A DNA stretch of 64,000 nucleotides, from positions 2,326 through 66,325 of the forward strand of contig JANOPS010000127.1 in NCBI GenBank assembly GCA_031421995.1, written 5' to 3'. Under the pieces are notes generated by a model. That model had not been told where the DNA came from and did no database searches. It was given only the letters and a program-made list of their open reading frames with translations. This document shows, one piece after another, positions 1,038-22,978 of the stretch; position 1 is the first letter of the stretch, and every line of letters begins with the position of its first letter. The stretch comes from Gemmatimonadaceae bacterium (GTDB lineage Bacteria; Gemmatimonadota; Gemmatimonadetes; Gemmatimonadales; Gemmatimonadaceae). The translations under genes and the position numbers were made by a program.

Positions 1038-1064
1038 GTATCGGCTACGAACGGTTGGCCTGAA
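1038..1064 (-). promoter_or_regulatory. Putative sigma28 (FliA) promoter for fliS
   Basis: Minus strand TTCA-N15-GCCGATAC versus consensus TAAA-N15-GCCGATAA; overlaps the fliD stop codon. Confidence 0.55.
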
Positions 1065-4089: not shown

Positions 4090-4194
4090 GCGCCTTTCAC
4101 AAACTCACGAGTGTCTCGGGAACGGAGTCTCACACCACCGGCACCTGCGTCTCGCGGGTGGCAGCATTCGTCACGAAACCACACCGTGTTGATC

Positions 4195-5616
4195 ATGACT
4201 GAGTTGGAGATCACGGCGTTGCTGGCGCGCGGAGAGGCCGCCCTGAACGCGTATGACTATCGCGGCGCGGCTGAGGCGTTCGGCGCGGTCGGGACGATGG
4301 TGCCGGACGACGTGACGGTGGCGCTGATGACGGCCAACGCGTGGCGCCTGGCCGACAACGCGCTTGCCGCACGCATCGTCCTGCGGCAGGTGTGCGCCCG
4401 CGCGTCGGGGTCGCTCGACGTGCCGACGCTCTTCACGCTGGGTGGAGCGCTCCTCGACACGGGCGCTCCCGAGGAGGCGCTCGACTGCTTCACGCGCGTC
4501 GCGAAGGCGATGCCGCGAGACGCCTCCGCCCTCAACGCGTTGGCAAGCGCGATGCGTGCATCCGGAGATCCCAAGGGCGCGTGGCCGGTCGTGCAGCGAG
4601 CGCTCACAATCGCCCCGTCATTGCCAGCGGCATTGCTCACGGCCGCCCACGTCCGCCAGGCACTCGGCGATCTTGCCGGCGCACAGCAGTTTCTCGATCG
4701 AGCGGACGTCGCTCGGCCGCGTCACGGACCTACGCAGTTGCAGCGCGGAATCGCGAGACTGTTGGCCGGTCCGGGTCAGGCCGGTTGGGACGGGTTTGAG
4801 TTTCGCGGACTCCCTGCACCCAAGACCAGCGCGCGCGCGTGGCACGGCGAATCCCTGGTGGGTGCGTCGATTGCGGTGATCGGCGAGCAAGGGATCGGCG
4901 ATCAATTCCACTTTGTGCGGTATGTGGCGCGTTTGACGGCGCGTGGTGCGGCGCGGGTGGTCGTCGAGTGTCATCCAGGTGCGGTGTCGCTGTTTACCGC
5001 CAGCGGCTACGATGCGGTCGCGAAAGGCGAGGCGCCCGAGACCGACTGGTACGTGCCGATGCTGTCGCTCCCACACCGGCTGGGGAGTGATGATGACACG
5101 GCCAGTGATTTAGTGCCGTATCTGAGAGCCACGGATCCGGGAGGCGAGGAGCCCGTGGAACGCGCTACCCGGCCGGCCGGTCTGCGTCGGGTAGGCCTGG
5201 TGTTGCAGGGCAACCCGGCGTTTCTCGCGACGACGCTGCGCGATTTTGACATATCCCAGCTCTCTGGTTTACTCGACATTCCGGACATCGAGTGGGTGTG
5301 GCTGCAATACCCTTCCCCGGCACCGGTGGAGCATCCGCGCCTGATGACGCCGTCAATGGACGGAAGTTGGATTGAGACGGCGCGCGTGGTCAGCTCGCTC
5401 GATGGCGTGGTGAGCGTGGATACCAGCCTCGCCCATTTAGGGGGCGCGATGGGTGTTCCGACATTTGTGCTGCTTCCCTACTCCCCGGATTGGCGGTGGG
5501 GGCTACGTCGCAGCACCACCCCGTGGTATCCGACGGCGCGTCTGATTCGGCAGGCCAAGCCGCTTGATTGGGGTTCGGCGGTGAACGAACTTATGCGTCG
5601 ACTGAGTGAATGGTAG
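4195..5616 (+). CDS. TPR-repeat glycosyltransferase (GT-B, GT9-like C-terminus), candidate flagellin-modifying enzyme
   Basis: Ala-rich TPR-like helices N-terminally; EQGIGDQFHFVRYV, DWYVPMLSLP and LDGVVSVDTSLAHLGGAMGVPTFVLLPYSPDWRWG motifs; divergent from fliC. Confidence 0.8.
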   Translation: MTELEITALLARGEAALNAYDYRGAAEAFGAVGTMVPDDVTVALMTANAWRLADNALAARIVLRQVCARASGSLDVPTLFTLGGALLDTGAPEEALDCFTRVAKAMPRDASALNALASAMRASGDPKGAWPVVQRALTIAPSLPAALLTAAHVRQALGDLAGAQQFLDRADVARPRHGPTQLQRGIARLLAGPGQAGWDGFEFRGLPAPKTSARAWHGESLVGASIAVIGEQGIGDQFHFVRYVARLTARGAARVVVECHPGAVSLFTASGYDAVAKGEAPETDWYVPMLSLPHRLGSDDDTASDLVPYLRATDPGGEEPVERATRPAGLRRVGLVLQGNPAFLATTLRDFDISQLSGLLDIPDIEWVWLQYPSPAPVEHPRLMTPSMDGSWIETARVVSSLDGVVSVDTSLAHLGGAMGVPTFVLLPYSPDWRWGLRRSTTPWYPTARLIRQAKPLDWGSAVNELMRRLSEW

Positions 5617-5690: not shown

Positions 5691-5774
5691 ATCTTGGACA
5701 CCTCTTGCCGTCGTCGCGTCGCGCGAGACCTCCGGCAGAATGTTTTAAAGTGTTGTTGAACAACGACTTATGGT

Positions 5775-5790
5775 TGGCACGAGATCTGCT
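5775..5790 (+). promoter_or_regulatory. sigma54 promoter of the glycosylation/acylation operon
   Basis: TGGCACGAGATCTGCT (GG-N10-GC); IHF-like GAACAACGACTTA at 5758-5770. Confidence 0.75.
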
Positions 5791-5845
5791 TTAGAGGTGG
5801 TGACGCAGTCTTCCTCCACCACCATGCTCGCGCCCGGAGTCGTTG

Positions 5846-6874
5846 ATGACCATTGCAGATCGCCTGCCTCGCTGGACACCCTCACGTTGGGATCGTCCGC
5901 TTGACCGGGAGATGCTCAGTCGGCTCGAAGCACGGGCCGCGACCGCGGGCATCCTGGGCCCTGGGCCGCAGTGGAGCTTCAGCAGCGGTCACATCACCTC
6001 CCTGCGCGACATGATTCACGCGTGGGTCGGATGGGGACGACTGCCGGTAACAGCGACGTCGGCAGAGTCAATCGAGACCACCGGGCATTCCGACTTCGCC
6101 ACACACGTGCTTCGCCATGTCGCACAGATCGACCACCTCGGACTGATCACGCCGAGCTTTGTCGATCACGCCAGAAAGCATCAGTGGCTTGTTGCAGACC
6201 TCTACTCTCTCATGGATGTCCTTGAACTGACCGCGTTCCTGGGCGCCACCAATGGCCCGAAGGTGCGGATCCTCGAGATCGGTGGTGGCTGGGGTCGTCT
6301 CGCGGAGATGATGCTGAAGCTGTTTCCGGGTCTCGTGGAGTATGTGATGGTTGACGCGGTGCCGATCTCTCTGGTCTCGGCCGAAGCGTATCTGCGTCAC
6401 GAGCTCCCCGAGGCGAGCATCGGCAGCTTCATCAGCGGAGACATCTACCAGCCCGGCTCCTTTGACGTGTACTTTGTGCCAAGCTGGGAAGTCGAGCAGC
6501 TTGGCACCGCGCGATTTGATGCCGTGGTGAATATCGAGAGCTTCCAGGAAATGACGCAGGAGCAAGTCGATCTGTACATCGGCTGGTTTGATCAGATGAT
6601 TGCCGACAACGGCATTGCCTACATTGCCAATTCGCACGACTACGTGATGAAAGGGAACTGGAGTTACCCCAGTTCGTGGCGCACGCTGGCGCGACACCGT
6701 ACGCCGCGCTCATGGACGATTGATAACTCCACCCACATTTTGCGGAAGGAAGTGGGACACTTTGCCGCGGCAAATGCGATCATCGACGTGTCGTACGCCG
6801 AGACGTTGCCGGTATCCGCGAACCCCGGAGTGATCGCCGCTGAGCAGCGGCGCGTCATTGTCGGCGTCGCGTAA
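5846..6874 (+). CDS. Putative sugar O-methyltransferase (class I SAM-dependent)
   Basis: ILEIGGGWGRLAE SAM-binding motif and FDAVVNIESFQEM motif typical of the putative sugar O-methyltransferase family. Confidence 0.75.
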   Translation: MTIADRLPRWTPSRWDRPLDREMLSRLEARAATAGILGPGPQWSFSSGHITSLRDMIHAWVGWGRLPVTATSAESIETTGHSDFATHVLRHVAQIDHLGLITPSFVDHARKHQWLVADLYSLMDVLELTAFLGATNGPKVRILEIGGGWGRLAEMMLKLFPGLVEYVMVDAVPISLVSAEAYLRHELPEASIGSFISGDIYQPGSFDVYFVPSWEVEQLGTARFDAVVNIESFQEMTQEQVDLYIGWFDQMIADNGIAYIANSHDYVMKGNWSYPSSWRTLARHRTPRSWTIDNSTHILRKEVGHFAAANAIIDVSYAETLPVSANPGVIAAEQRRVIVGVA

Positions 6875-6895
6875 CGACTACCCGCCCCGACTTCC

Positions 6896-7912
6896 ATGTC
6901 TCTTTTCGCAACCGACGCGACGCTCCTCGGCTCATCGACCGCGGTCGCCGGTGCCGTGCGCCGTGAAGTGCCATCCGAGAGAGCGACGGCGACTGCACAG
7001 GCTTACGAGCATGTGCAGACCACCGCATCGATTGATACTCCGGACTCCACCGCGGTATGGAGCGCGCGACTTCCCGTCGCTATCGAGGCTGCGCTTCGTC
7101 GTGGTCACGTCCGCGCAGCGGCACTGTTGCACGAAGCGGCAACGAGTCACCTCAGCACTGATAATCCAGCGCTGCTCGCCTCGCGCTCGCTGATCGACGG
7201 CGCGGCAGCCGCCGACGCCGCCATTCAGCAGCGGCAGTTGGCCGGCGACGCCTTGGTGATCCCGTCGCTCACCGAAGTGCAGCCTGGACACCCGCGATTT
7301 TTCATTGGTCTCCAGTGGAATGAGATGGCGCACCCCATCGTGCAGGACGTCGTGACGCGCGAGCTTTCCGATGGCAGTCAGGCCGAGTTGCGGAACTTCC
7401 TCGACGAATCGCTCTGCGCAACGGATACGTTTCTCGATCTTGAGCCGGGCATCGGTATCGGGCTGTTCACGGCACTGAGTGCACCGAACGGTGTGAACGG
7501 TGTGTACGCGGTCCAACGCGACCCGGGCTTGCACGCGATCTTGCGTCGCAACATCGACCGGTCATACCCTGCCGCCACGGTGGCATTGCGTGCTGACCAG
7601 AGAGGCGTTGCCGAGTGCGTACGCTCCGCACGTGGTCGACTTGTCGCGCACGTGGGCACTCACCCGCTCGACGTGCTGCAGAGCGCTCTGGCACAAATGC
7701 GTACACGCGCGGCCGCCGTCATTCTCGATCTGACCAGCGACAACGCCAGTGCTTCGCTGGGCACGCTGGACAGCATGGGATTCCGGTCATTCGTGCTCGT
7801 ATCGAATGCTGAAGAGATTGAACTGCTGCCCTTCGAAGAGCGGTACGGGGCGCAGTACGTATTCGCCCTGTCGTCGCGCTTCATCGATTCCGTCGAGGTG
7901 CCCGCACCATGA
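6896..7912 (+). CDS. Degenerate FkbM-like methyltransferase-fold protein
   Basis: FLDLEPGIGIGLFTAL...VYAVQRDPGLHAILRRNI resembles FkbM motifs I/II but is diverged; coupled to the next gene by ATGA. Confidence 0.45.
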   Translation: MSLFATDATLLGSSTAVAGAVRREVPSERATATAQAYEHVQTTASIDTPDSTAVWSARLPVAIEAALRRGHVRAAALLHEAATSHLSTDNPALLASRSLIDGAAAADAAIQQRQLAGDALVIPSLTEVQPGHPRFFIGLQWNEMAHPIVQDVVTRELSDGSQAELRNFLDESLCATDTFLDLEPGIGIGLFTALSAPNGVNGVYAVQRDPGLHAILRRNIDRSYPAATVALRADQRGVAECVRSARGRLVAHVGTHPLDVLQSALAQMRTRAAAVILDLTSDNASASLGTLDSMGFRSFVLVSNAEEIELLPFEERYGAQYVFALSSRFIDSVEVPAP

Positions 7913-8535
7913 TCGCTGACGCCCCGACGGTGGCTCGTGCAGTCTGTGCGCTGCGCCGTGCACCTGTGCGGGGGCACGTCATTGATCTCGTGCCCTACCG
8001 CGCGGCGCACCACGAGCGTGTGATTGCGCTCCGCAACACCGAGCGTGCCTCGTACTTTTTGCATCAACCGGCGCCATTGACACGCGAAGGTCAGGCGGGA
8101 TGGTTCGCGAGTTACCTGAACAAAACCGACGACCTCCAGTGGGCCATCGTTCGAAAGGACGGGGCGGTTGTGGGTGCGACCGCGTTGTATGGTATCGCCG
8201 ACGATCGTTCGATGGCGGAGAAGGGCCGGCTTGTCGCCGATCCGTTGCTCTCGAAGCAGGGGCCCTACGTGTTGGAGGCCGAGCTGTTGCTTCTCGATGT
8301 CGCATTCGCGCGGCTCGACCTGCGCGCCGTCACCACCTGCGTGCGCGATGATAACGGCGTGATGCAGCACATCAACGCTCGCCTCGGCTTCGAGCGCAGC
8401 GGGCAGCATGTCATTCGCGGTGTGGAGTACTTCGACTATCGGCTGACTGCCGACCGGTACGCACCGGAACCCCTGCGCGCCACTGCGGTCGCGTGGGCGC
8501 AACGCACTTCCCGCACCCAAGGAGCTCCCCGATGA
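7909..8535 (+). CDS. GNAT N-acyltransferase (PseH/RimL-like)
   Basis: LRNTERASYF...GWFASY...WAIVRKDGAVVGATAL...AEKGRL...TCVRDDNGVMQHINARLGF GNAT pattern. Confidence 0.8.
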   Translation: MIADAPTVARAVCALRRAPVRGHVIDLVPYRAAHHERVIALRNTERASYFLHQPAPLTREGQAGWFASYLNKTDDLQWAIVRKDGAVVGATALYGIADDRSMAEKGRLVADPLLSKQGPYVLEAELLLLDVAFARLDLRAVTTCVRDDNGVMQHINARLGFERSGQHVIRGVEYFDYRLTADRYAPEPLRATAVAWAQRTSRTQGAPR

Positions 8536-8798
8536 CAGTCCTCGCACCCGTGATCACCGCCAACCACGTGACCCGTCTTCAGCAGGTCTTTACCGCGGCC
8601 TTGGAGCTCGCGCCGGACGTCGATCACAGCGGTCTCGCGTATCGTGAAACGCCGCAATGGGATTCGGTGGCGCACCTGCAGTTGGTCATCGCACTTGAAG
8701 CCGAGTTCGATGTCATGCTGGAGACCGACGACGTCTTGTCGCTCAGCACCTTTGGTGACGCGACAACGATTCTTGGCCGACACGGCATCGCATTCTGA
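8532..8798 (+). CDS. Acyl carrier protein
   Basis: 88 aa acidic protein with WDSVAHLQLVIALEAEFDV phosphopantetheine Ser motif; ATGA overlap with the GNAT gene. Confidence 0.9.
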   Translation: MTVLAPVITANHVTRLQQVFTAALELAPDVDHSGLAYRETPQWDSVAHLQLVIALEAEFDVMLETDDVLSLSTFGDATTILGRHGIAF

Positions 8799-9538
8799 TG
8801 GCGGATCCGGCCGTCGCGTTGGTGACAGGCGCTGCGCGCGGTATCGGTGCCGCGACTGCGTCGCGCTTCGTGCGCGATGGCGCGACCGTCTTTATGGCGG
8901 GTCGCGATATCGCGTCTTTGGAGGCGCACGCGTCCACGCTGAATGCGGTGGGCCCCGGGACGGCGATCGCGCTCTCGCTGGACGTGTCCGATCCGTCGTC
9001 GATTGCGGCCGCCTTCCGCGTGGTCTTCGCGACGTCGCGTCGGCTGGACGTCCTCGTGAACAACGCCGGCGTCATGGAGCCTGGACTGATCGGTGCCATC
9101 ACTGACCTCGCGCTGGCGCGTGCCTTCGCTATCAACGCCACCGGTTCCATTCTGTGTCTGCAGGCCGCTGCACGACTCATGCAGCGGCAGAAGCACGGTG
9201 CCATTGTCAACGTGTCGTCAGTGCTGGCGACACGCGCGGCCGTCGGAAAGACCGCCTACGCCGCGTCAAAGGCTGCGATCGAGGCAGCAACACGTTCGGC
9301 CGCCCTTGAACTCGCGCCCTGGGGTATTCGGGTCAACGCCGTCGCACCGGGATGGATCGACACGGAGTTAGTCGCGCATCTCTCGGCGGCGGCGCGTGTC
9401 GAGACGCAGCGTCGCGTGCCGATGGGACGGCCCGGACGACCCGACGAAGTGGCGACGGTGATTGCGTTTCTGGCCAGTCCGACCGCGTCGTACGTCACCG
9501 GGGCGATTGTTCCGGTCGACGGCGGATACGCGCCATGA
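8798..9538 (+). CDS. SDR family oxidoreductase (FabG-like 3-oxoacyl-ACP reductase)
   Basis: TGAARGIG, NNAG, YAASK and NAVAPG motifs. Confidence 0.9.
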   Translation: MADPAVALVTGAARGIGAATASRFVRDGATVFMAGRDIASLEAHASTLNAVGPGTAIALSLDVSDPSSIAAAFRVVFATSRRLDVLVNNAGVMEPGLIGAITDLALARAFAINATGSILCLQAAARLMQRQKHGAIVNVSSVLATRAAVGKTAYAASKAAIEAATRSAALELAPWGIRVNAVAPGWIDTELVAHLSAAARVETQRRVPMGRPGRPDEVATVIAFLASPTASYVTGAIVPVDGGYAP

Positions 9539-10959
9539 TCGGCAGACTTCATCCGCCGTGTGATGGCGTTGCGTTTGTGTCACCGGCCACCACCAGCACG
9601 TTGACGTACGCCCAACTCCATGCGCTTGTGCGTGACACGGCGGCGCGTTGGACGGCGTCGCGTCGGCAGCTTGTCTTCCTCCGAGTTCGGAACGATCTGG
9701 CGAGCGTGCTTGCCTTTTTGTCGCTCCGCGAGGCCGGGCACGTGGTGGTGCTGGTGGACCATGCGCTGGCGCCTGAACTGCTCGACGCGTTGGTGAGCAC
9801 GTACCATCCGGAGCTCATTGTTTCCGGCGACAGCCGCGATCAGGCTGATCAGGCACCGTCGGGCGGCGAACTGGTGGAGATGGGCAATGTCTCGTGCATG
9901 GTCGTCGCGTCACGTCCCGCCCATGCATCCGACCTGTATGACCAGCTCGCCTTCTGCCTGACCACTTCGGGATCGACGGGAAGTCCAAAACTGGTTCGTC
10001 TCAGCGAGTCGGCGCTCACCGCCAACGCGCGATCGATCGCCGTAGCACTGGACATCTCGAGTGCGGACCGTGCCATCACGTGTCTGCCGCTGCACTACGC
10101 CTACGGCCTGTCCATTCTCACAAGTCATCTGGCGGCCGGCGCCTCGGTGGTGCTCTCGGAAGACCGCATCATGGACGGCGCCTTCTGGTCGACCGTACGC
10201 GAGCATGCGGTGACCTCGTTGGCGGGTGTTCCGTATACCTACGAAATGCTCGAACGGCTCGGGTACGGACGTGTGATTCCGTCGAGTGTCCGGACCATGA
10301 CACAGGCCGGTGGACGGCTCTCGGACGCGGCCACCCTTCGCGCGCACGCCTTCATGAGCGAACGTGGGGGTCGCTTTCATGTCATGTATGGACAGACGGA
10401 AGCCACCGCGCGCATGGCCGTTCTACCCCACGGTTGGTTGCCCGAGCACATCGGATGTGCGGGACGCGCCATTCCGGGAGGCACACTTGCCGCGTGTACG
10501 GAAGCCGGTGTGCCGCTGGGACCCGACGAGGAAGGCGAGATTGTATACCGTGGACCGAACGTGATGCTCGGCTATGCCACGACCCGCGAGGACCTCGCGC
10601 TCGGAGACGTACAGCGTGGGGTGCTGCGCACGGGAGATCTCGGCGTGGTGAGTGCCATCGGTGCAGTTCGGATTACGGGTCGGCTCAAGCGCATGGGCAA
10701 GCTCTTTGGTGTGCGCGTGGATCTCGACATGCTCGAAACGCTGGCGGGAACAACGGCGCCGGCCGCGGTCATCGAAGGCGACAACGCCCTCATCATCTTT
10801 GCGGCAGGCGGTGACGCGGTGGATCTCGAGGCGATGCGCGCGCGCATCGCGTCACGTCTCAACGTGAAGCAGCGCGTCATCGATGTGCGGCGTATCGCGG
10901 AGCTTCCGCGGACGTCGTCCGGCAAAGTGGATTATCCCACGCTCCGAGCGTGCGCATGA
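9535..10959 (+). CDS. AMP-dependent acyl-CoA/acyl-ACP ligase
   Basis: TTSGSTGSPK, MYGQTEA, TGDLG, GRLKR and PRTSSGKVD adenylation motifs; start at ATGA overlap 9535. Confidence 0.9.
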   Translation: MIGRLHPPCDGVAFVSPATTSTLTYAQLHALVRDTAARWTASRRQLVFLRVRNDLASVLAFLSLREAGHVVVLVDHALAPELLDALVSTYHPELIVSGDSRDQADQAPSGGELVEMGNVSCMVVASRPAHASDLYDQLAFCLTTSGSTGSPKLVRLSESALTANARSIAVALDISSADRAITCLPLHYAYGLSILTSHLAAGASVVLSEDRIMDGAFWSTVREHAVTSLAGVPYTYEMLERLGYGRVIPSSVRTMTQAGGRLSDAATLRAHAFMSERGGRFHVMYGQTEATARMAVLPHGWLPEHIGCAGRAIPGGTLAACTEAGVPLGPDEEGEIVYRGPNVMLGYATTREDLALGDVQRGVLRTGDLGVVSAIGAVRITGRLKRMGKLFGVRVDLDMLETLAGTTAPAAVIEGDNALIIFAAGGDAVDLEAMRARIASRLNVKQRVIDVRRIAELPRTSSGKVDYPTLRACA

Positions 10960-12077
10960 CCGCCGTCGCCTTGCCCGCCACGCGTGGTGTCGAAACACGG
11001 AAACGGGAGCAGCAGTTCGCCATTCCGCAGTACATGCTGTTGGCGGCTGACAAGCAGCCCATGCTGCTGCGCAGCCTGAACGCGCTCACGGCGCACCATC
11101 GCGCGGCCTCACCAACCTACGCGCGCATGATCGACGCGCTCTTTGATGACCGCGGTGCCGATGCACCTGACCTCGCATCGGTGCCTTTTCTGCCCGTTGG
11201 CATATTCAAATCGCACCAGCTGCAGAGCATTCCGGACAGTGAAATTGCCACGGTGTTGGTCTCGAGCGGCACGACGGGACAAATACCCAGCCGCATTGTG
11301 CTCGATCACGCGACCGCCACGCGACAGCGTGTTGCGTTGGCGAGCATCATGGGGACGCTGCTTGGACCGCGACGTCTGCCGATGTTGGTGCTTGATGCAC
11401 CGGGCATCATCAGAGCGAAGGGGCCACTCACTGCTCGCGGTGCCGGTGTTCTTGGCATGATGACGTTCGGTGGTGCGCACGTGTTCTGCCTGGATGATGC
11501 GCTGACGATTCAGCGCGATGTCATCGAGCAGTTCCTCGCGAAACATGGGCATGCGCCCTTTCTCATCTTTGGCTTCACGTTCCTCGCGTGGCAGGCGCTG
11601 ATTGAGCAGCTGCCCGTCGGCTTCCTCGATCTCTCCAATGGTATTCTCGTGCACTCGGGAGGGTGGAAGACGCTCGAGGCACGCGCCGTGACCGACGCGG
11701 TGTTCCGGCAACGGCTGTCTGAGGCCACGGGACTTACCCGGATCCACAATTTCTATGGTATGGTGGAACAGGTGGGCAGTGTGTTCCTGCAGGGCGACGA
11801 TGGATTGCTCTATCCTCCTGATTTCGCCGACGTGCTGATCCGCGATCCGCGCTCCCTTGAAATCGTCCCGCATGGGACGGAGGGCGTGATTCAGGTTGTG
11901 AGTGTGCTGCCGCATAGCTATCCGGGGCATTCGATCCTCACCGAGGACCGAGGGGTGATCGTGCACGAGGACGCGCCGTACAGTTCTCGATGCGGCAAGG
12001 GTTTTCGTGTGCTTGGGCGCGTTCCGCGCGCGGAACTTCGCGGCTGCAGTGACGTCATCGCCACGGGGATGCCGTAA
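10956..12077 (+). CDS. LuxE-family acyl-protein synthetase
   Basis: PFLPVGIFK, SSGTTG, HSGGWK, NFYGMVEQVG, PGHSILTEDRG and C-terminal ELRGCSD with the acylated Cys. Confidence 0.9.
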   Translation: MTAVALPATRGVETRKREQQFAIPQYMLLAADKQPMLLRSLNALTAHHRAASPTYARMIDALFDDRGADAPDLASVPFLPVGIFKSHQLQSIPDSEIATVLVSSGTTGQIPSRIVLDHATATRQRVALASIMGTLLGPRRLPMLVLDAPGIIRAKGPLTARGAGVLGMMTFGGAHVFCLDDALTIQRDVIEQFLAKHGHAPFLIFGFTFLAWQALIEQLPVGFLDLSNGILVHSGGWKTLEARAVTDAVFRQRLSEATGLTRIHNFYGMVEQVGSVFLQGDDGLLYPPDFADVLIRDPRSLEIVPHGTEGVIQVVSVLPHSYPGHSILTEDRGVIVHEDAPYSSRCGKGFRVLGRVPRAELRGCSDVIATGMP

Positions 12078-13333
12078 TGCTGGCCGCAACACGACCACGG
12101 AGCGTGGAGGCCGCCGCGCCGGCATGTACGGACCTCGCCACGTCGGTGTCCGCGCAATTCTCGCTCGCACCGTTGTTGCAACCGTTCGACGCCAGAACGC
12201 TGGCCTTCACGACGGACCTTTCGCGCGCCCTCGCGTCCGATCGAGAACTCCGCGGCCACGGCGCCGCGCAGGCCCTTGCGTACTGGCTGCGTCCCACGGA
12301 AACGCGACGCCTGCAGCAGTACGTCCGGGCGATTGAAGGCGACAATGCCGTTCTGGTTCCCCGTGGCACCGTGTTTCATGTGCCTCCGTCAAACGTGGAC
12401 ACGTTGTTTGTCTATTCCTGGGCTCTGGCACTGCTGGTTGGCAATCGCAACGTTGTCCGTTTGTCGACGACGCTCAGCGGCCTTGGCGCATATATCGCGT
12501 TCCTGACCGAGTCGGTCCTGGCACGCCCGGTGCACGCCGATGTCGCCGCGGGCACGGCCTTTGTGCGTTATGGACACGAAGCCGAGCCGACGCGTGCCCT
12601 GTCGGCACTCTGCGATGTGCGCGTGTTGTGGGGTGGCGATGCCGCCGTCAGCCGCCTACGTGCCGCGCCGTTGGCGCCGCACGCCATAGAACTCGTGTTT
12701 CCGGACCGATACAGTTTTGCCGCGCTGCACGTTGGTGCGGTCGATGCCCTCACCGCCGAGGAGCGCGATGTGCTTGCCGACCGGTTTGCGGCCGACGCGT
12801 TCGTCTTCGATCAACAGGCCTGCGCCTCACCACGGCTGGTGCTGTGGGTTGGCAACGCGGCGTCAATGCATCGCGTGTCTGCGGATTTCTGGACTCGGGT
12901 GGCGAGCGCCACAGCACGTCGCGGGGTGACGATTGACGCCAGCGGCGCCTTGCGGAAATTCACGGTGTCTGCCGCTTGTGCTGCAGATGAATGCGTGGAG
13001 CACATCACCCGTGTCAGCCCTGAGGTGACGGTGGTTCGTCTCGGTTCCCTCGACGGGCTTCAGCGCGTTGCGCCCGGCAGCGGCCTGTTCCATGAGGTTT
13101 GTCTCACATCACTTGAGGAACTCGCTCCCCACCTGCGCCGACGCGATCAGACGCTGACCGTGTTCGGGTTTTCCCGCGATGCGCTCGTCGCAACGGTGCG
13201 CCATCTGAATGGTCGTGGTGTTGATCGCGTGGTGCCGGTCGGGCAAGCGCTGGCCTTTGATCACGTGTGGGACGGCTACGATCTGCTGCAACAGTTCACG
13301 CGCCGCGTCGCCGTGCGCGCAGAGGACGTGTAG
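12077..13333 (+). CDS. LuxC-family acyl-CoA reductase
   Basis: PRGTVFHVPPSNVD, WGGDAAV, FPDRYSF and FDQQACASP with the catalytic Cys. Confidence 0.88.
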   Translation: MLAATRPRSVEAAAPACTDLATSVSAQFSLAPLLQPFDARTLAFTTDLSRALASDRELRGHGAAQALAYWLRPTETRRLQQYVRAIEGDNAVLVPRGTVFHVPPSNVDTLFVYSWALALLVGNRNVVRLSTTLSGLGAYIAFLTESVLARPVHADVAAGTAFVRYGHEAEPTRALSALCDVRVLWGGDAAVSRLRAAPLAPHAIELVFPDRYSFAALHVGAVDALTAEERDVLADRFAADAFVFDQQACASPRLVLWVGNAASMHRVSADFWTRVASATARRGVTIDASGALRKFTVSAACAADECVEHITRVSPEVTVVRLGSLDGLQRVAPGSGLFHEVCLTSLEELAPHLRRRDQTLTVFGFSRDALVATVRHLNGRGVDRVVPVGQALAFDHVWDGYDLLQQFTRRVAVRAEDV

Positions 13334-13462
13334 TCATGCGGCATCGCTTTGCAAGCCTTTGCACAATCACGCGATGGTCACGGCCCACTTCTTGTATGAC
13401 GGAGCGCTAGCTATGCCCCGGGATACATGGGCGTCAACGAGCACCTTCTCCCTGTCACTGCA

Positions 13463-14527
13463 ATGATGAGCACTCAACACGCGGATATCGGCGTCGGCAT
13501 AATCGGTTGTGGCTATTGGGGCCCGAACCTGATCCGGAACTTTGACCGTCATCCACGGTGCCGGGTCGAACGCGTCGCCGACGTTCGCCGCGAGCGGGCG
13601 GAGGCGATTGCGCGTGAGTTTCACGTGCCGGCCGCGAACGATGATCCCGCGTCGGTGATAGACGACCCGCGCGTTCGACTGGTGGTCATTGCGACGCCCG
13701 CGGTAACACACTTCCCGCTTGCACGTCGCGCGTTGCTGGCGGGGAAGCACGTCCTGGTCATGAAGCCGTTCACCACCTGTACCGAGCACGCCGAGGAGCT
13801 GATCGCGCTTGCGCATCGACAGGGGCTTGTGTGCGCCGTCGACCACACGTTCGTGTATACCGGCGCCGTGCAGAAGATGTACGAGACGATGCACGACGGG
13901 TCGATGGGTGATCTGTTCTACATCGATAGTGTGCGCATCAACCTTGGACTGTTCCAGAGCGACGTCAACGTGCTCTGGGATCTCGCGCCGCACGACCTCA
14001 GCATCATCGACTACCTGCTTGACGGCCAGGACCCGACCGCGATCCATTGTCTCGGGGCGGCACACGCAGGCGGCAATCAGGAGAACATCGCGTACCTCAC
14101 GGTCACGTATCCAGGCAATGTCCTGGCCCATGTCCATGTGAATTGGCTCGCGCCTGCCAAGGTACGGCGCACGATTGTGGGTGGCTCGCAGCGGATGATT
14201 GTGTATGACGACGCGGAGCCTTCGGAGAAGATCCGGATCTATGACCGAGGGGTGTCCATCGAAAAGAGCTCGTCGGCGGAAGAAGTGTATCAACAGTTTG
14301 TCAGCTACCGACAAGGCGATATGCTCGTCCCGCAGATCAGCGGCCGCGAAGCGCTTGCCGTTGAGGTCGAGCATTTGGTGGAGTGCATCCAGACGGGAGC
14401 GGCGCCGCGGAGCGACGGCCGGTCCGGTCTCCGCGTGGTCCGCATCCTTGAAGCGGCACAACAGCAACTGGAAGCGGCGCGCGCGCCAAGCCTGGCACGA
14501 CTCCGACAGGTGATGGGAGCCGCCTGA
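13463..14527 (+). CDS. Gfo/Idh/MocA family NAD-dependent sugar dehydrogenase (WbpB/WlbA-like)
   Basis: GVGIIGCGYWGPNL, IATPAVTHF, GKHVLVMKP, WDLAPHDLS motifs; an alternative start at 13427 is possible. Confidence 0.88.
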   Translation: MMSTQHADIGVGIIGCGYWGPNLIRNFDRHPRCRVERVADVRRERAEAIAREFHVPAANDDPASVIDDPRVRLVVIATPAVTHFPLARRALLAGKHVLVMKPFTTCTEHAEELIALAHRQGLVCAVDHTFVYTGAVQKMYETMHDGSMGDLFYIDSVRINLGLFQSDVNVLWDLAPHDLSIIDYLLDGQDPTAIHCLGAAHAGGNQENIAYLTVTYPGNVLAHVHVNWLAPAKVRRTIVGGSQRMIVYDDAEPSEKIRIYDRGVSIEKSSSAEEVYQQFVSYRQGDMLVPQISGREALAVEVEHLVECIQTGAAPRSDGRSGLRVVRILEAAQQQLEAARAPSLARLRQVMGAA

Positions 14528-15684
14528 TGATCGCCCCCGCCGTGATGTCGGTGGCCCCGACAGACCGTCAGACGACAGAGGCCATACCCTTTCTTGATCT
14601 TGTGGCGCCGCATCGCGAGATCGAAGAGGAACTTGTCGCCGTCTTCCGCAACGCGCTGCGCACCGCCGCTTTCGTCGGTGGACCGGATGTGGAAGGCTTC
14701 GAACGTGATTTTGCCGCATATGTGGGCACGCCGTATGCCATTGGCGTGGCCAATGGCACCGATTCGCTGCGCTTCATCTTTCAGTCGCTGGGGGTGGCCG
14801 CTGGCGATGAAGTGATCACGGCGTCGCACACCTTCATTGCCACGTCGGAGGCGATCACACAGGCGGGCGGTAGACCGGTGTTCGTCGATATTGACCCGGT
14901 CACCATGACGCTTGATCCTGCGGCAGTCGCGGCGGCCATCACTCCGCGAACGGTCGGCATTGTCCCTGTGCACATCTACGGGCAGTCTGCGGACATGGAT
15001 CCCCTGCTTGCGTGCGCACGAAAGCACGGGCTGTGGGTGGTAGAAGATGCGGCGCAGGCTCACGGCGCACGATACCGTGGCCGAGCGGTCGGGTCGATCG
15101 GAATTGCCGGATCGTTTTCCTTCTATCCGGGCAAGAACCTTGGCTCCTGCGGCGAAGGGGGCGCGGTGACGACGGCCGACCCCGCCATTCGTGAAGGCGT
15201 GCGGCGGTTGCGTGAGCACGGGCAGCGTGAGAAGTACGTGCACGTTTCTGAAGGCTATAACGGTCGATTGCACGCCATTCAAGCCGCGATCCTTCGGATC
15301 AAACTTCGGGAGCTCGCGTCCGCGACGGCGGGCCGCCAACGGGTCGCAGGCTGGTACGCCGAGGCGCTTGCCGATATCTCCGAGCTTGAACTGCCGCGCA
15401 CAGCCGCGTATGCCGACCATGTCTGGCATCTGTACGTCGTGCGCACCGCGAATCGCGAGGCCTTGCGCCACGCATTGACCTCCGCGCGCATCGAATCGGG
15501 GCTGCACTATCCGATTCCGCTGCATCGACAAGAATGCTACGCGCACCTCCAGTATGCGGCGGGCTCGTTGCCGGTGACGGAGCAGACCGCTGCCACGCTG
15601 CTAAGTCTCCCGATGTTCCCCACGCTTACGCAGGATCAGGTCAGTCGAGTTGCCGACGTGATCCGGACCCACTTCGGCGGATAG
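14527..15684 (+). CDS. DegT/DnrJ/EryC1/StrS PLP aminotransferase (WbpE/WlbC-like)
   Basis: VANGTD, VEDAAQAHGA and FSFYPGKNLG with the PLP-binding Lys intact; GYNGRL. Confidence 0.92.
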   Translation: MIAPAVMSVAPTDRQTTEAIPFLDLVAPHREIEEELVAVFRNALRTAAFVGGPDVEGFERDFAAYVGTPYAIGVANGTDSLRFIFQSLGVAAGDEVITASHTFIATSEAITQAGGRPVFVDIDPVTMTLDPAAVAAAITPRTVGIVPVHIYGQSADMDPLLACARKHGLWVVEDAAQAHGARYRGRAVGSIGIAGSFSFYPGKNLGSCGEGGAVTTADPAIREGVRRLREHGQREKYVHVSEGYNGRLHAIQAAILRIKLRELASATAGRQRVAGWYAEALADISELELPRTAAYADHVWHLYVVRTANREALRHALTSARIESGLHYPIPLHRQECYAHLQYAAGSLPVTEQTAATLLSLPMFPTLTQDQVSRVADVIRTHFGG

Positions 15685-15691
15685 GTTACGC

Positions 15692-16924
15692 ATGGGGACC
15701 GCCACCGAGGACCGACGCCACGTCGTCCTATTCATTGGGGACAGCAGCTATGGCGTGCTCTCGTATCTCACCACGGACCTTGCCCGCGCGCTCATGGCGC
15801 ACGGATGGACGACAGAGGTCGTGGATCTCACGCGACTCTCGCTCGCCACGGAGCTTCGGCGGATTCAGCGCGAGGATCGGGTGCGTTTCTTCTGCGCATA
15901 CTCGGGGTACGGAGCGGATATCATCGCCAATGACCGTCTGCTCTACGACGTGCTGGCGGTTCCGTACGTGGGATTGATGCTCGACAATCCCTGCTACTTT
16001 CCAACGCGGCACCTGACGGCCTCCGAACAGCTGATGCTGTTGCACGGTGATGATGGCCATCACGATGTGTCCGTGGAAATTTCGCCGCGGGGCAGCTGGC
16101 GCGGCCTGTTTCGTCTTGCGTCCACGCCGTCGACCGACGGCGAACGGCCTCTCGCGGCGCGCGCGTATGGGGCGATGTTCGCGAGCAAGGGCGGCGACCC
16201 GCTGCGCTATGAGCGCGAACTCCGCGCGACGCTGGACGCCTCGTCGCGCCGCTTTGTGTTTGAGGTGGCCGCGGCGCTGGGTGCCCAGCACGCGCCGCAG
16301 CGCGTGTGGGAGGTGGCGCGCGCGCACGCGGCGTTACTTGGGATAAGCACGGAACACGCGCCTTCGGTGGCCTACCATACGCTGGTGCTGCGAGCCGATC
16401 ACCTCGCGCGTCTTCGTCGTGCCACCGCCGTCGCTCGCGCCCTCTTGTCTGTTCCTGTCACCTTCGTCGGCGGCGACTGGTCACACCTGCAGTCGCCGAC
16501 CAGCCGCGCCACCTTTCTCCCGCCCGCACCGTTGCCGGTGGTTCGGCGCATGATGGCAAATAGTCGTGTGGTGCTCAACGTGCAACCTGGCACGACGGAT
16601 TCGATGCATGATCGCTTGGTACTCGGCCTTCACGCCGGTGCGGTGGTCGTCTCCGATTCCAACCGTGTCATTCGCGAGCGTGTCGGGCACGACGCCTTTG
16701 TTGTCTGGGACGGCGGCCCCGAGAGTATTGCGGACGTGGTGTCTGACTCAACGCGAGAATCGGCCGCGCTGCAGTCCCGCGCGACGCGTGGGCTGCGCAC
16801 GGCCCGCGAGCGGCTGACGCTGGCACAGATGGCGGCAGCGCTCCTGCAGACCGTCCAATTGCATGGTGCCCAGCGTGCGCAGCCGCCGGCAGTGGCCCAG
16901 CATTCCTTGGCGCGAAGCGCCTAG
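15692..16924 (+). CDS. Glycosyltransferase (CgeB/YkvP-like GT-B C-terminal domain)
   Basis: C-terminal MMANSRVVLNVQP....HDRLVLGLHAGAVVVSD motif; lies within the sugar operon. Confidence 0.65.
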   Translation: MGTATEDRRHVVLFIGDSSYGVLSYLTTDLARALMAHGWTTEVVDLTRLSLATELRRIQREDRVRFFCAYSGYGADIIANDRLLYDVLAVPYVGLMLDNPCYFPTRHLTASEQLMLLHGDDGHHDVSVEISPRGSWRGLFRLASTPSTDGERPLAARAYGAMFASKGGDPLRYERELRATLDASSRRFVFEVAAALGAQHAPQRVWEVARAHAALLGISTEHAPSVAYHTLVLRADHLARLRRATAVARALLSVPVTFVGGDWSHLQSPTSRATFLPPAPLPVVRRMMANSRVVLNVQPGTTDSMHDRLVLGLHAGAVVVSDSNRVIRERVGHDAFVVWDGGPESIADVVSDSTRESAALQSRATRGLRTARERLTLAQMAAALLQTVQLHGAQRAQPPAVAQHSLARSA

Positions 16925-16945
16925 TACCGCATCATACCGCTCTCT

Positions 16946-22069: not shown

Positions 22070-22978
22070 TTACAGGTAGTTGGCGAGGCTCAGGCCGAGA
22101 ATGCGCGTCGTCGCGCTCATCGCTGCCTGATGCAGCGTTTGTTTACTGACCAACGACGCGATGGCCGATTCCACGTCTGTGTCGCGAAGATCGGCGCGGT
22201 AGCCGCTGAGGGAGAGCTCGGTCGATCCGAGCGTGAGGCGTGCGCTCTCCATAGCGTCGACGCGCGCGCCATGGGAACCGAGCAGGCCTTGCACCTGTCC
22301 GTTGGCGGCGGTGACTGCATCCATCGCCGCTTGAATAGCCGGCACATCGTTGTTGCCGAGCGCGGTGGAAAGCGCCCGCAGCGACTCGAGGGCGTTGGTG
22401 GAGAGAAAAACCTCCGTGGCGTTATGCGTCGGCGCGACGAATTCTCCTTCGCCGATCTCCAGCTCGATCGCGCCGCTGGGGTTGACGGGATTGCCCGCCA
22501 ACGTGAGCGCGGAGAATCCGTCGGCTGGGGTTGGCGGTACTCGTAGCGGCCGCTCACCAGCACGCGAGCCGCCGAACAGATACTCGTCGCCCATCTTCGT
22601 ATTGGCCAGCTCGACCGCACTGCTGATCACTTGGTCCACCTCGGCCTTTGCGATGAGCCGTGTTTGTGCGGTCGCGGTGCCATTCGCCGCCGAGATCCCC
22701 AGGTCGATCGCGCGGTTCAGGCCGTTGGACAGCTGATCCAGCACGACATCCTCACGGGAGGCACGGGCAAGGCCGAGGTCGATGTTCCGTCGATATTGGG
22801 TGATCGCGCGCAGGGAGCTGTTGAGGCGCACAACGGTGCCGGCGGCCGTGGGATCATCCGAGACCTTTCTGAGCGAAACGCCGGACGAGATATCCTCGCG
22901 CAGCCGATCGATGCCCTGCAAGCCTGTTTGCAGGCGCGCCTGGCTGTTTCGCGTGATCATCTGATTGGTGACGCGCAT
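22070..22978 (-). CDS. flgL: Hook-filament junction protein FlgL (HAP3)
   Basis: MRVTNQM...ISSGVSLRKVSDDPTAA...ANTKMGDEYLFGG...DTDVESAI flagellin-like termini of FlgL. Confidence 0.93.
   Translation of the reverse strand: MRVTNQMITRNSQARLQTGLQGIDRLREDISSGVSLRKVSDDPTAAGTVVRLNSSLRAITQYRRNIDLGLARASREDVVLDQLSNGLNRAIDLGISAANGTATAQTRLIAKAEVDQVISSAVELANTKMGDEYLFGGSRAGERPLRVPPTPADGFSALTLAGNPVNPSGAIELEIGEGEFVAPTHNATEVFLSTNALESLRALSTALGNNDVPAIQAAMDAVTAANGQVQGLLGSHGARVDAMESARLTLGSTELSLSGYRADLRDTDVESAIASLVSKQTLHQAAMSATTRILGLSLANYL

What the first reader, a model, noticed from the sequence alone, without database searches (positions are those of the whole stretch)
7909..13333. LuxC/LuxE acyl-reduction cassette (GNAT-ACP-SDR-ligase-LuxE-LuxC) embedded in a flagellin modification island
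Seen: six translationally coupled genes, with the thioester Cys intact in LuxE (RGCS) and LuxC (QQAC) and no luxA/B/D. Established: a comparable ACP + acyl ligase + LuxC/E-like set in the Vibrio cholerae O1 rfb/wbe locus is proposed to make the tetronate acyl group of perosamine, and luxC-like genes have been reported in Aeromonas flagellar glycosylation islands (recalled, should be verified). Inference: the cassette builds an unusual hydroxy-acyl group on the ACP, and the GNAT transfers it to the amino sugar made by the adjacent dehydrogenase/aminotransferase pair, giving an undescribed acylated and methylated flagellin glycan.
Basis: partly seen in the sequence, partly recalled or inferred. 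Interest (0 to 1): 0.65.

Follow-up and report, generated by a model that had tools for sequence, protein, structure and literature searches.

The report
Acyl-tailoring gene cassette beside flagellin
A soil-type Gemmatimonas genome carries, inside its flagellar gene cluster, a widespread but never biochemically solved gene cassette that most likely makes a small hydroxy-acid and attaches it to an amino sugar that probably decorates the flagellum; the same cassette has already been noted in Aeromonas and enterobacterial flagellin islands, so this is a new example rather than a new system.

Summary
Seven + strand genes (6896-13333) are joined by 1- or 4-nt start/stop overlaps: an orphan 338-aa protein, GNAT, ACP, SDR, AMP-ligase, LuxE and LuxC. 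ACP Ser45, LuxE Cys364 and LuxC Cys249 are intact. The genome has no LuxD.

The five-gene core ACP-SDR-ligase-LuxE-LuxC keeps this order in 68-78 of the 80 best loci, from more than 578 species in about ten phyla. Its commonest immediate neighbour is an amino-sugar N-acyltransferase, of the LbH/PglD, GNAT or AAC(3) type.

In Gemmatimonadota the core is part of an 11-gene block that also holds a C3 dehydrogenase/aminotransferase pair and two glycosyltransferases. Here the block fills a hypervariable slot between flagellin/FliD/TPR-glycosyltransferase and FlgL. In two relatives it lies outside flagellar loci.

The most likely chemistry has four steps, all inferred:
- LuxE/LuxC and the SDR reduce one carboxyl of a dicarboxylic acid to an alcohol.
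- The ligase loads the other carboxyl on ACP.
- The GNAT N-acylates a 3-amino sugar.
- The sugar goes to flagellin.

The same core, annotated but untested, is published for Aeromonas and Enterobacteriaceae flagellin islands. This scan noted such cassettes 35 times on other DNA.

Verdict: a new member of a known kind, of moderate interest.

The parts
6896..7912 (+). Orphan 338-aa protein, possibly a divergent class-I methyltransferase fold; first gene of the coupled run
   Evidence: No Pfam or NCBIfam hit. Only 9 homologues, all lineage-restricted. AF2 mean pLDDT 59; Foldseek top hits are all SAM methyltransferases but weak, TM 0.25-0.43. ATGA overlap with the GNAT. Kept in front of the GNAT in L007, L008, L009 and L089.
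7909..8535 (+). GNAT (Acetyltransf_3, RimJ/RimL-like) acyltransferase; proposed N-acyl transferase to the amino sugar
   Evidence: Pfam 3e-13. Weak PseH similarity, 2.7e-6, far below cut-off. Homologues found only in Gemmatimonadota-type sequences, 28 clusters.
8532..8798 (+). Dedicated acyl carrier protein, 88 aa, Ser45 in a WDS motif
   Evidence: Ser conserved in 74/74 cassettes. AGGAG ribosome-binding site at 8520-8524.
8798..9538 (+). FabG-like SDR with a YxxxK motif; proposed aldehyde-to-alcohol (or keto) reductase
   Evidence: Pfam 5e-64. Below the FabG equivalog cut-off, 211 vs 297.75 bits. Tyr and Lys kept in 68/68.
9535..10959 (+). ANL (AMP-forming) ligase, 474 aa; proposed loader of the ACP
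   Evidence: Pfam 4e-46. TSGSTGSPK and SSGK motifs. The A10 Lys is kept in 78/78. Similar in length to V. cholerae WbeL, 471 aa.
10956..12077 (+). LuxE-family acyl-protein synthetase, 373 aa, C-terminal Cys364
   Evidence: Pfam 1.3e-45. Aligns over residues 71-372 with 7xc6_E, including the acylated Cys. Cys kept in 80/80. Single copy in the genome.
12077..13333 (+). LuxC-family thioester reductase, 418 aa, Cys249
   Evidence: Pfam 4e-26. Profile alignment to 7xc6_A puts Cys249 on the LuxC active-site Cys. Invariant in alignment A1.
13427..14527 (+). Gfo/Idh/MocA oxidoreductase, probably a nucleotide-sugar 3-dehydrogenase
   Evidence: Pfam. Best NCBIfam hit is UDP-GlcNAc 3-dehydrogenase, 4.5e-38, below cut-off. 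PDB hits.
14527..15684 (+). DegT-family aminotransferase, C3-type
   Evidence: Among the best PDB hits: 2oga (1e-100), QdtB 3frk (1e-88), WbpE (4e-79). That 2oga is DesV, and that all three act at C3 of the sugar, is established knowledge.
15692..16924 (+). Glycosyltransferase-like protein belonging to the 11-gene block
   Evidence: Pfam Glyco_trans_1_2, 5e-6. Conserved after DegT in L008, L009 and L089.
16946..18862 (+). GT41 (OGT)-like glycosyltransferase, last gene of the 11-gene block
   Evidence: Pfam Glyco_transf_41, 1e-8. Conserved in L008, L009 and L089.
5843..6874 (+). NanM-type sugar O-methyltransferase; among the loci compared (L007-L009, L089, L119-L121) found only in this genome's version of the island
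   Evidence: TIGR04371, 1.1e-48, 166 bits vs cut-off 44. Not found by tblastn in L007, L008, L009, L089, L119, L120 or L121.
5775..5789 (+). Sigma54-like -24/-12 element (TGGCACGAGATCTGC) in the 227-nt gap upstream of the operon; a hint only
   Evidence: There are 11 one-mismatch matches in the window against 5.9 expected, so this is not significant on its own. A similar element lies at 21415-21429(-) upstream of the second DegT gene.
4111..5616 (+). TPR + GT-B protein with FlmG-like architecture, conserved next to flagellin in all congeners checked (start may be ATG 4196)
   Evidence: Pfam TPR repeats plus a weak Glyco_transf_9 hit. Present next to flagellin in L007, L008, L119, L120 and L121. 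FlmG architecture taken from PMC7591256.
3233..3985 (-). Flagellin, about 250 aa from ATG 3985 (the ORF list gives GTG 4060)
   Evidence: Pfam Flagellin_N and Flagellin_C. Start codon and ribosome-binding site read.
1045..3141 (-). FliD filament cap
   Evidence: Pfam FliD_N, FliD_C and Flagellin_IN.
22070..22978 (-). FlgL-like hook-associated protein; far boundary of the variable glycosylation slot
   Evidence: Pfam Flagellin_N and Flagellin_C. Conserved boundary in L008 and L119.

Best explanation
Genes 6896-18862 are an 11-gene sugar-tailoring block sitting in the variable glycosylation slot of the flagellar locus.

Its core (ACP, SDR, ANL ligase, LuxE, LuxC) is a portable cassette that makes a small oxygenated acyl group on a dedicated carrier protein.

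Proposed flow; every step is inferred and none is shown:
1. LuxE adenylates one carboxyl of a short dicarboxylic acid (L-malate, succinate or similar) and passes it, through its C-terminal Cys364, to Cys249 of LuxC.
2. LuxC reduces the thioester to an aldehyde with NAD(P)H.
3. The SDR reduces the aldehyde to an alcohol.
4. The ligase adenylates the remaining carboxyl and loads it on Ser45-phosphopantetheine of the ACP. The order of loading and reduction may be reversed.
5. The Gfo/Idh/MocA enzyme and the DegT enzyme make a 3-amino-3-deoxy nucleotide sugar, most simply UDP-GlcNAc3N.
6. The GNAT moves the hydroxyacyl group from the ACP to that amine.
7. One or two methyltransferases add methyl groups.
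8. The glycosyltransferases of the block put the sugar on flagellin, together with the conserved flagellin-adjacent TPR-glycosyltransferase.
For: Shown directly:
- The genes, their overlaps and their intact catalytic residues are real.
- The five-gene core in this order recurs in 68-78 of the 80 best loci from about ten phyla.
- The commonest immediate neighbour of the core is a PglD-like LbH N-acyltransferase (20 flanking genes). Chlamydiae have an AAC(3)-type N-acetyltransferase instead, and Gemmatimonadota a GNAT.
- Actinomycete and planctomycete loci add DegT, Bac_transf, a 4,6-dehydratase, a flippase and a PPTase. Different acyltransferase families filling the same place argues for an acyl-donor role.
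- DegT is closest to C3 aminotransferases, and the Gfo enzyme to UDP-GlcNAc 3-dehydrogenase.
- The block lies between flagellin/FliD/TPR-GT and FlgL in the window, L007, L008, G067 and G216.
- A congener without the cassette has other GTs, a DegT, an LbH transferase and a methyltransferase in the same slot.
- FlmG of Caulobacter shows that a TPR + GT-B protein glycosylates flagellins.

Inference:
- Two carboxyl-activating enzymes, one carrier and no ketosynthase imply a substrate with two carboxyls.
- No LuxD exists to supply fatty acids.
- From established knowledge, recalled: V. cholerae O1 uses an ACP, a ligase, an alcohol dehydrogenase, a LuxE/LuxC-like protein and an acyltransferase for 2,4-dihydroxybutanoyl-perosamine. 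Only wbeL is supported here.
- In Aeromonas strains carrying the same core, the flagellin linking sugar is a 376-Da pseudaminic acid derivative (oxonium 377.16), and an unassigned 102-Da unit occurs. By my arithmetic, +60.02 Da over Pse5Ac7Ac equals replacing acetyl with a C4H6O3 acyl group, and C4H6O3 weighs 102.03 Da.
Against: - There is no experiment on any member of this cassette. Substrate, order of steps and product are unknown.
- The same 11-gene block lies outside flagellar loci in L089 (flanked by peptidases and DUF5916) and in L009, so the target could be another protein or glycan.
- GNATs normally use acyl-CoA, not acyl-ACP.
- The SDR looks most like FabG-type ketoreductases, so it may reduce a keto group rather than an aldehyde.
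- The Aeromonas mass match cannot tell C4H6O3 isomers apart, for example O-methylglyceroyl. The published Aeromonas deletions did not remove the cassette alone.
- LuxC matches the Pfam model over only part of its length, and that model also hits unrelated genomes.
Confidence: 0.55

Rival explanations
1. Liposugar reading, as proposed by the Aeromonas and Enterobacteriaceae authors. The cassette channels a long-chain fatty acid, as in bioluminescence, into a fatty aldehyde or fatty acyl-ACP, and the glycan carries a lipid.
For: LuxC/LuxE of luminous bacteria act on C14 acids (established knowledge). Published annotations call these genes 'fatty acid synthesis' genes and suggest a liposugar.
Against: - Scores against the true LuxC and LuxE equivalogs are tiny: 25.5 vs 750 bits and 46.3 vs 550 bits.
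- No LuxD is present, and the block contains no ketosynthase, dehydratase or enoyl reductase.
- The only homologous module with a known product (V. cholerae, recalled) makes a C4 acid.
- The unexplained masses in Aeromonas are 60 and 102 Da, not lipid-sized.
Confidence: 0.12
2. Same chemistry, different target. The acylated amino sugar goes to LPS, EPS, an S-layer protein or another glycoprotein, and lying next to flagellin reflects only a permissive insertion site.
For: The block is found away from flagellar genes in L089 and L009. In most phyla the core sits in polysaccharide-type loci with Bac_transf, a flippase and GT4 genes.
Against: - At least four Gemmatimonas genomes other than the window have the block or its LuxE gene beside FliD/flagellin; in L007 and L008 the whole block lies right after flagellin/TPR-GT, and in L008, as in the window, FlgL closes the slot.
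- That slot holds alternative glycan genes in a congener.
- The block has no initiating phosphoglycosyl transferase, flippase or polymerase. It does carry a GT41-like enzyme, a family that acts on proteins.
- A possible sigma54 element lies upstream.
Confidence: 0.2
3. The aldehyde is the point of the pathway. The LuxC product is used for C-C extension or for reductive N-alkylation of the amino sugar, with the SDR as imine or keto reductase, rather than simply being reduced to an alcohol.
For: Variant cassettes carry transketolase subunits next to the core (L020, L023 and L061; a Rhizobium plasmid). This shows that an aldehyde intermediate can be elaborated.
Against: This window has no transketolase, ThDP or aldolase gene. 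The majority form is core plus SDR only. An ACP, a ligase and an acyltransferase would be unnecessary for N-alkylation.
Confidence: 0.08
4. A free small molecule, a leupeptin-like acyl or peptide aldehyde, is made and released, unrelated to glycans.
Against: There is no peptide ligase, NRPS or exporter in the block. The core is in strict synteny with Gfo/DegT and glycosyltransferases in all four related Gemmatimonadota loci examined (L007, L008, L009, L089), where the locus reaches that far, and with sugar genes in other phyla.
Confidence: 0.03

Closest known systems
[quoted passage not shown] The Acp/FabG/CaiC/LuxE/LuxC genes of Enterobacteriaceae flagellin islands are the same kind (PMC4875605).
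   Same: The same five families in the same order, preceded by a GNAT-type N-acyltransferase gene, inside a flagellin glycosylation island. There is no luciferase. The function is untested in both cases.
   Different: In Aeromonas the cassette sits among pseudaminic acid genes and Maf-type transferases. Here there are no pse genes. Instead there is a Gfo/DegT C3-amination pair, an orphan methyltransferase-like gene, and TPR and GT41-type transferases. The phylum also differs (Gemmatimonadota). Sequence identity to the Aeromonas genes was not measured.
Vibrio cholerae O1 wbeK-wbeO (rfbKLMNO) genes assigned to the tetronate (2,4-dihydroxybutanoyl) group of N-acyl-perosamine
   Same: An ACP, an ANL ligase of about 470 aa (WbeL is 471 aa), LuxE/LuxC-type acid reduction, an aldehyde-reducing dehydrogenase and an N-acyltransferase acting on an amino sugar. 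The gene content is recalled from Morona et al. 1995 and genome annotation and was not read here.
   Different: By recollection, V. cholerae uses an iron alcohol dehydrogenase rather than an SDR, a hexapeptide acetyltransferase rather than a GNAT, and a fused LuxE-LuxC protein. Its target is an O-antigen sugar aminated at C4. No sequence comparison was possible with the tools.
Pseudomonas syringae viosamine island (vioA, vioB, vioM, vioR, vioS, vioT, acp) making N-(3-hydroxy-1-oxobutyl)-2-O-methyl-viosamine on flagellin (PMC3927599)
   Same: It is experimentally shown that flagellin carries an amino sugar that is both hydroxyacylated and O-methylated. The island has an ACP, a FabG-like reductase, an aminotransferase, an acyltransferase and a methyltransferase.
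   Different: The acyl chain there is built by a KAS III ketosynthase. It has no ligase, LuxE or LuxC. The sugar is aminated at C4 on a dTDP-6-deoxyhexose.
LuxCDE fatty acid reductase of luminous bacteria (structure 7xc6)
   Same: Homologous LuxE and LuxC, with both acyl-accepting cysteines conserved.
   Different: No LuxD and no adjacent luxAB. Scores against the curated LuxC and LuxE equivalog models are far below cut-off.

Membership tests
LuxCDE fatty acid reductase (bioluminescence) | LuxE with an acylatable C-terminal Cys, and LuxC with an active-site Cys | tested here: met
   Cys364 aligns with the 7xc6_E Cys. Cys249 aligns with the 7xc6_A Cys.
LuxCDE fatty acid reductase (bioluminescence) | Scores above the curated LuxC and LuxE equivalog cut-offs | tested here: not met
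   LuxE 46.3 bits vs 550; LuxC 25.5 bits vs 750.
LuxCDE fatty acid reductase (bioluminescence) | LuxD acyl-transferase and luxAB luciferase in the operon | tested here: not met
   No PF02273 hit in the 99%-complete genome. The neighbouring genes are sugar and flagellar genes.
Flagellin-island acyl cassette (Aeromonas group II / Enterobacteriaceae type) | ACP, FabG-like SDR, AMP-ligase, LuxE and LuxC as adjacent co-directional genes | tested here: met
   The order matches that described in PMC7874193.
Flagellin-island acyl cassette (Aeromonas group II / Enterobacteriaceae type) | Location within a flagellin glycosylation island | tested here: met
   The block lies between flagellin/FliD and FlgL. 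The slot is variable among congeners.
Flagellin-island acyl cassette (Aeromonas group II / Enterobacteriaceae type) | Association with pseudaminic acid (pse) genes and Maf transferases | tested here: not met
   No pse or maf families among the window genes scanned. The GNAT matches PseH only weakly, 27.5 bits vs 93.1.
Flagellin-island acyl cassette (Aeromonas group II / Enterobacteriaceae type) | Sequence orthology to the Aeromonas proteins | not tested
   No Aeromonas sequence was available in the collections used.
V. cholerae O1 tetronate module (wbeK-O) | ACP + ANL ligase + LuxE/LuxC-type reductase + N-acyltransferase beside an amino-sugar pathway | tested here: met
   for the window. The V. 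cholerae gene content is recalled; only wbeL is confirmed.
V. cholerae O1 tetronate module (wbeK-O) | Iron-type alcohol dehydrogenase and a hexapeptide acetyltransferase | tested here: not met
   The window has an SDR and a GNAT instead.
V. cholerae O1 tetronate module (wbeK-O) | Product is 2,4-dihydroxybutanoyl on the sugar amine | not testable with these tools
   Needs MS or NMR of the glycan, or enzyme assays.

The most novel reading that the evidence does not exclude
The ACP-SDR-ligase-LuxE-LuxC core is a general machine that turns a central-metabolism dicarboxylic acid (for example L-malate) into an omega-hydroxyacyl-ACP. It would use an acyl-ACP-dependent GNAT (or an LbH or AAC(3) enzyme elsewhere) to N-acylate amino sugars. 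This would explain at once the V. cholerae tetronate group, the unassigned 376-Da and 102-Da units of Aeromonas flagellin, and hundreds of unannotated glycan loci. In Gemmatimonas it would give flagellin a 3-N-(dihydroxybutanoyl)-type GlcNAc3N, a sugar I do not know to have been reported on flagellin.
Probability: 0.3. Interest if true: 0.6.

Novelty: new member of a known kind. Interest (0 to 1): 0.4.

Why it matters
The cassette occurs in more than 578 species across about ten phyla. It also sits in flagellin or O-antigen loci of pathogens (Aeromonas, Enterobacteriaceae, V. cholerae O1), yet its chemistry has never been reconstituted.

The Gemmatimonas version is compact and tightly coupled, and it comes with its own sugar-amination pair and acyltransferase. 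All partners needed for an in vitro reconstitution are therefore in one 11-gene block.

Solving it would put a name on a common class of glycan N-acyl decorations. It could also resolve unassigned masses in published flagellin glycoproteomics.

As a genome finding it is not surprising: the gene set has been noted in the literature and 35 times in this scan.

Tried and rejected
- Single-sequence PDB search with LuxC found nothing useful. A profile of 24 homologues was needed.
- The Pfam LuxC model is not specific: it also hits 8 of 14 control genomes. LuxE was therefore used for the distribution counts.
- Literature searches linking tetronate, perosamine, ACP, LuxC and rfbK-O returned no usable paper. 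Two hits for LuxC were only lux-reporter citations. The V. cholerae gene content therefore stays recalled.
- No search found a paper assigning a dihydroxybutanoyl group to pseudaminic acid.
- The orphan 338-aa protein has no Pfam or NCBIfam hit even at E=5. Its AF2 model is poor (pLDDT 59) and the fold matches to methyltransferases are weak. I treat the methyltransferase call as tentative.
- The GNAT homologue search reached only close Gemmatimonadota relatives. It could not test whether this GNAT subfamily accompanies the cassette elsewhere.
- The sigma54 pattern count in the window is not above chance (11 vs 5.9 expected; 3 of 100 shuffles reach it). Only the position of two sites is suggestive.
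- I considered a true fatty-acid reductase and rejected it, because LuxD is missing and the equivalog scores are far below cut-off.

Full report
**1. What is in the sequence**

The + strand between 6896 and 13333 carries seven genes whose stops and starts overlap by one or four bases:
- ATGA at 7909, 8532, 9535 and 10956
- TGATG at 8796
- TAATG at 12075

Pfam and NCBIfam assign them as follows:

| Gene | Coordinates | Assignment |
|---|---|---|
| orphan | 6896-7912 | 338 aa, no family hit |
| GNAT | 7909-8535 | Acetyltransf_3 type |
| ACP | 8532-8798 | 88-aa acyl carrier protein |
| SDR | 8798-9538 | FabG-like |
| ligase | 9535-10959 | 474-aa AMP-forming ligase |
| LuxE | 10956-12077 | LuxE family |
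| LuxC | 12077-13333 | LuxC family |

The ORF list gives longer frames for ACP, ligase and LuxE. The overlaps and an AGGAG site fix the real starts.

The ACP is weak in the profile libraries. It has the WDS motif, and its Ser45 is kept in 74 of 74 homologous cassettes.

LuxE aligns over residues 71-372 with the solved LuxE chain 7xc6_E, including the C-terminal Cys. A profile of 24 LuxC-like homologues aligns the invariant Cys249 (FDQQAC) with YDQQAC of the solved LuxC 7xc6_A.

The genome is 99% complete. It has one LuxE gene, no LuxD, and three phosphopantetheinyl transferases elsewhere.

**2. Surroundings**

Upstream lie:
- FliD (1045-3141, -) and flagellin (3233-3985, -)
- a TPR + GT-B protein (4111-5616)
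- a NanM-type sugar O-methyltransferase (5843-6874; TIGR04371, 166 bits against a cut-off of 44)

Downstream lie:
- a Gfo/Idh/MocA oxidoreductase, whose best family match is UDP-GlcNAc 3-dehydrogenase
- a DegT aminotransferase; among its best solved relatives are DesV (2oga), QdtB and WbpE, all C3 aminotransferases
- a GT-like protein
- a GT41-like glycosyltransferase

After two minus-strand genes come an FlgL-like protein, a sigma54 activator, rod proteins and FliF. The cassette is thus deep inside the flagellar cluster.

A sigma54-like element lies 54 bp upstream of the methyltransferase gene start (5775-5789). A similar one precedes the second DegT gene. The pattern count in the window is not above chance, so this is only a hint of co-regulation.

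**3. The core is a portable, widespread cassette**

Among the 80 best loci, tblastn with the window proteins finds:
- LuxE in 78
- the ligase in 77
- ACP in 74
- the SDR in 68

They are nearly always in the order ACP-SDR-ligase-LuxE-LuxC. The taxa span Gemmatimonadota, Acidobacteriota, Planctomycetota, Actinomycetota, Deinococcota, Chlamydiota, Myxococcota, Bacillota, Chloroflexota and Pseudomonadota.

All catalytic residues checked are conserved:
- LuxE Cys in 80/80
- ligase A10 Lys in 78/78
- SDR Tyr and Lys in 68/68

A census of the genes immediately flanking the core shows one dominant neighbour, a PglD-like hexapeptide N-acyltransferase with 20 members. Chlamydial loci have an AAC(3)-type N-acetyltransferase. 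Other neighbours are polysaccharide deacetylases, GT2 enzymes, transketolase subunits and a Bac_transf-GT4 fusion.

Annotated contexts in Actinoplanes, Virgisporangium and a planctomycete add DegT, 4,6-dehydratases, Bac_transf, a flippase and a phosphopantetheinyl transferase.

Cultured carriers include Rhizobium, Deinococcus, Ponticoccus and Nonomuraea replicons.

Three unrelated acyltransferase families fill the same position next to the same core. To me this is the strongest argument that the core supplies an acyl donor for amino-sugar N-acylation.

**4. The Gemmatimonadota block and the flagellin link**

In relatives L007, L008, L009 and L089 the core is embedded in one conserved block: orphan, GNAT, ACP, SDR, ligase, LuxE, LuxC, Gfo, DegT, GT-like, GT41-like.

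In the window, L007 and L008 the block follows flagellin and the TPR-GT directly. In genomes G067 and G216 the LuxE gene lies about 7 kb from FliD.

LuxE is patchy within the lineage: 3 of 13 other genomes of the genus and 3 of 69 of the family have it.

Three congeners without the cassette keep FliD-flagellin-TPR-GT. In one of them (L119) the slot before FlgL holds other GT4 enzymes, a DegT, a hexapeptide transferase and a methyltransferase. The slot is therefore a hypervariable flagellin glycosylation island.

The conserved TPR-GT has the architecture of Caulobacter FlmG, whose TPR domain binds flagellins.

Against a simple reading, the whole block lies outside flagellar genes in L089 (flanked by peptidase S51, DUF5916 and peptidase M24) and in L009. 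Flagellin as the target is likely, at about 0.6, but not established.

**5. Mechanism**

None of the steps has been tested anywhere. My reasoning is as follows.
- The block has two carboxyl-activating enzymes (ANL ligase and LuxE), one carrier, a thioester reductase and a reductase. It has no ketosynthase, dehydratase or enoyl reductase, and no LuxD.
- A monocarboxylic acid reduced by LuxE/LuxC would lose the only group that can form an amide. A dicarboxylic acid fits better: one carboxyl is reduced to an aldehyde by LuxE/LuxC and then to an alcohol by the SDR. The other is loaded on the ACP by the ligase and transferred by the GNAT to the C3 amine made by Gfo/DegT.
- By recollection, the V. 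cholerae O1 module has an ACP, a ligase, an iron alcohol dehydrogenase, a LuxE/LuxC-like protein and an acetyltransferase, and is assigned to 2,4-dihydroxybutanoyl-perosamine. That acid is what reduction of the C4 carboxyl of L-malate would give. One search confirms only that the 471-aa WbeL and the genes downstream of it are held to make tetronate.
- Earlier notes of this scan describe variants with an iron alcohol dehydrogenase in place of the SDR. If correct, this supports an aldehyde-reducing role for that position. I did not test it.
- In Aeromonas strains with the same core, the flagellin linking sugar is a 376-Da pseudaminic acid derivative (oxonium 377.16), and an unassigned 102-Da unit is reported. 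By my arithmetic the difference from Pse5Ac7Ac (316 Da) is 60.02 Da. That equals exchanging acetyl (C2H2O) for a C4H6O3 acyl group, and C4H6O3 weighs 102.03 Da. This is suggestive only. Isomers such as O-methylglyceroyl fit equally well, and the published deletions did not remove the cassette alone.

**6. Comparison with what is known**

- The five-gene core, preceded by a GNAT gene (pseH), is described for Aeromonas group II flagellin islands. There it is read as 'fatty acid' genes that might give a liposugar. The same families are listed for Enterobacteriaceae flagellin islands.
- P. syringae flagellin carries N-(3-hydroxybutanoyl)-2-O-methyl-viosamine, made with an ACP, a KAS III, a FabG-like reductase, an acetyltransferase and a methyltransferase. 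A hydroxyacylated, methylated amino sugar on flagellin is therefore not a new kind of glycan.
- The window's LuxC and LuxE are homologues, not members, of the bioluminescence reductase. Their equivalog scores are far below cut-off and LuxD is absent.
- What is particular here is the phylum, the pairing with a C3 amination route rather than nonulosonic acid genes, the lineage-restricted GNAT, the orphan gene, and FlmG/GT41-type rather than Maf-type transferases.

**7. Earlier notes of this scan**

Thirty-five earlier findings on other genomes describe LuxE/LuxC/ACP/ligase cassettes in glycan loci, and 24 of the scan's notes mention flagellin. They give the same closest relatives and the same verdict of 'widespread, untested'. 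I treated them as leads. My own counts agree with them.

**8. Verdict**

I class this as a new member of a known, biochemically unsolved cassette, with interest 0.4.

Noticed in passing
L063:5704-6618 and L085 (next to LuxC): In two Capillimicrobium (Solirubrobacterales) loci a luciferase-like monooxygenase (Bac_luciferase, 3.5e-48) lies directly downstream of LuxC. It is probably an F420/FMN oxidoreductase acting on the aldehyde rather than a light-emitting enzyme.
   Followed up: no
G015:C1:47764-48855 (L090) and G137:C21:42139-43062 (L094): Two genomes of the same phylum have LuxE matches inside open frames of 824 and 834 aa. This suggests fused LuxE-LuxC proteins like the V. cholerae RfbN that I recall. 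G015 scores much closer to canonical LuxE (6e-93).
   Followed up: no
L089 (JGI contig, 4865-16815) and L009: The complete 11-gene block, from the orphan gene to the GT41-like gene, occurs outside any flagellar locus. In L089 it is flanked by peptidase and DUF5916 genes. The block therefore moves as a unit.
   Followed up: partly
L119:4802-13175 (congener G257): The same slot between the flagellin-adjacent TPR-GT and FlgL holds a different glycan gene set: a 919-aa GT4, a CAP59-like transferase, DegT, a hexapeptide transferase, a methyltransferase and a 618-aa GT4.
   Followed up: partly
window 20045-21379 (-) and 18905-20038 (-): A second DegT-family gene (2.9e-87) and a 377-aa protein with only faint DUF5865 and B12-binding hits close the island before FlgL. 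Another first-reader note says this DegT lacks the PLP lysine. DegT-family sugar dehydratases also lack it (recalled). I did not examine this.
   Followed up: no
L122 (Rhizobium anhuiense plasmid pRA_T24_2, 185517-197700): A cultured rhizobium carries an extended variant on a plasmid: split transketolase, LpxA-like acyl-ACP transferase, ACP, ligase, GT, DegT, LuxE, LuxC, SDR, GMC oxidoreductase, FabZ and a methyltransferase.
   Followed up: no
L044:11188-12015 and L075 (Chlamydiae MAGs): An aminoglycoside 3-N-acetyltransferase-family gene (Antibiotic_NAT, 2e-34) directly follows LuxC. It may be a third type of acyltransferase recruited to the cassette.
   Followed up: no
window 5775-5789 (+) and 21415-21429 (-): Two sigma54-like -24/-12 elements (TGGCACG....TCTGC) sit in the intergenic regions that head the island's two transcription directions, near a sigma54 activator gene (23171-24700). 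The overall count is not above chance.
   Followed up: partly
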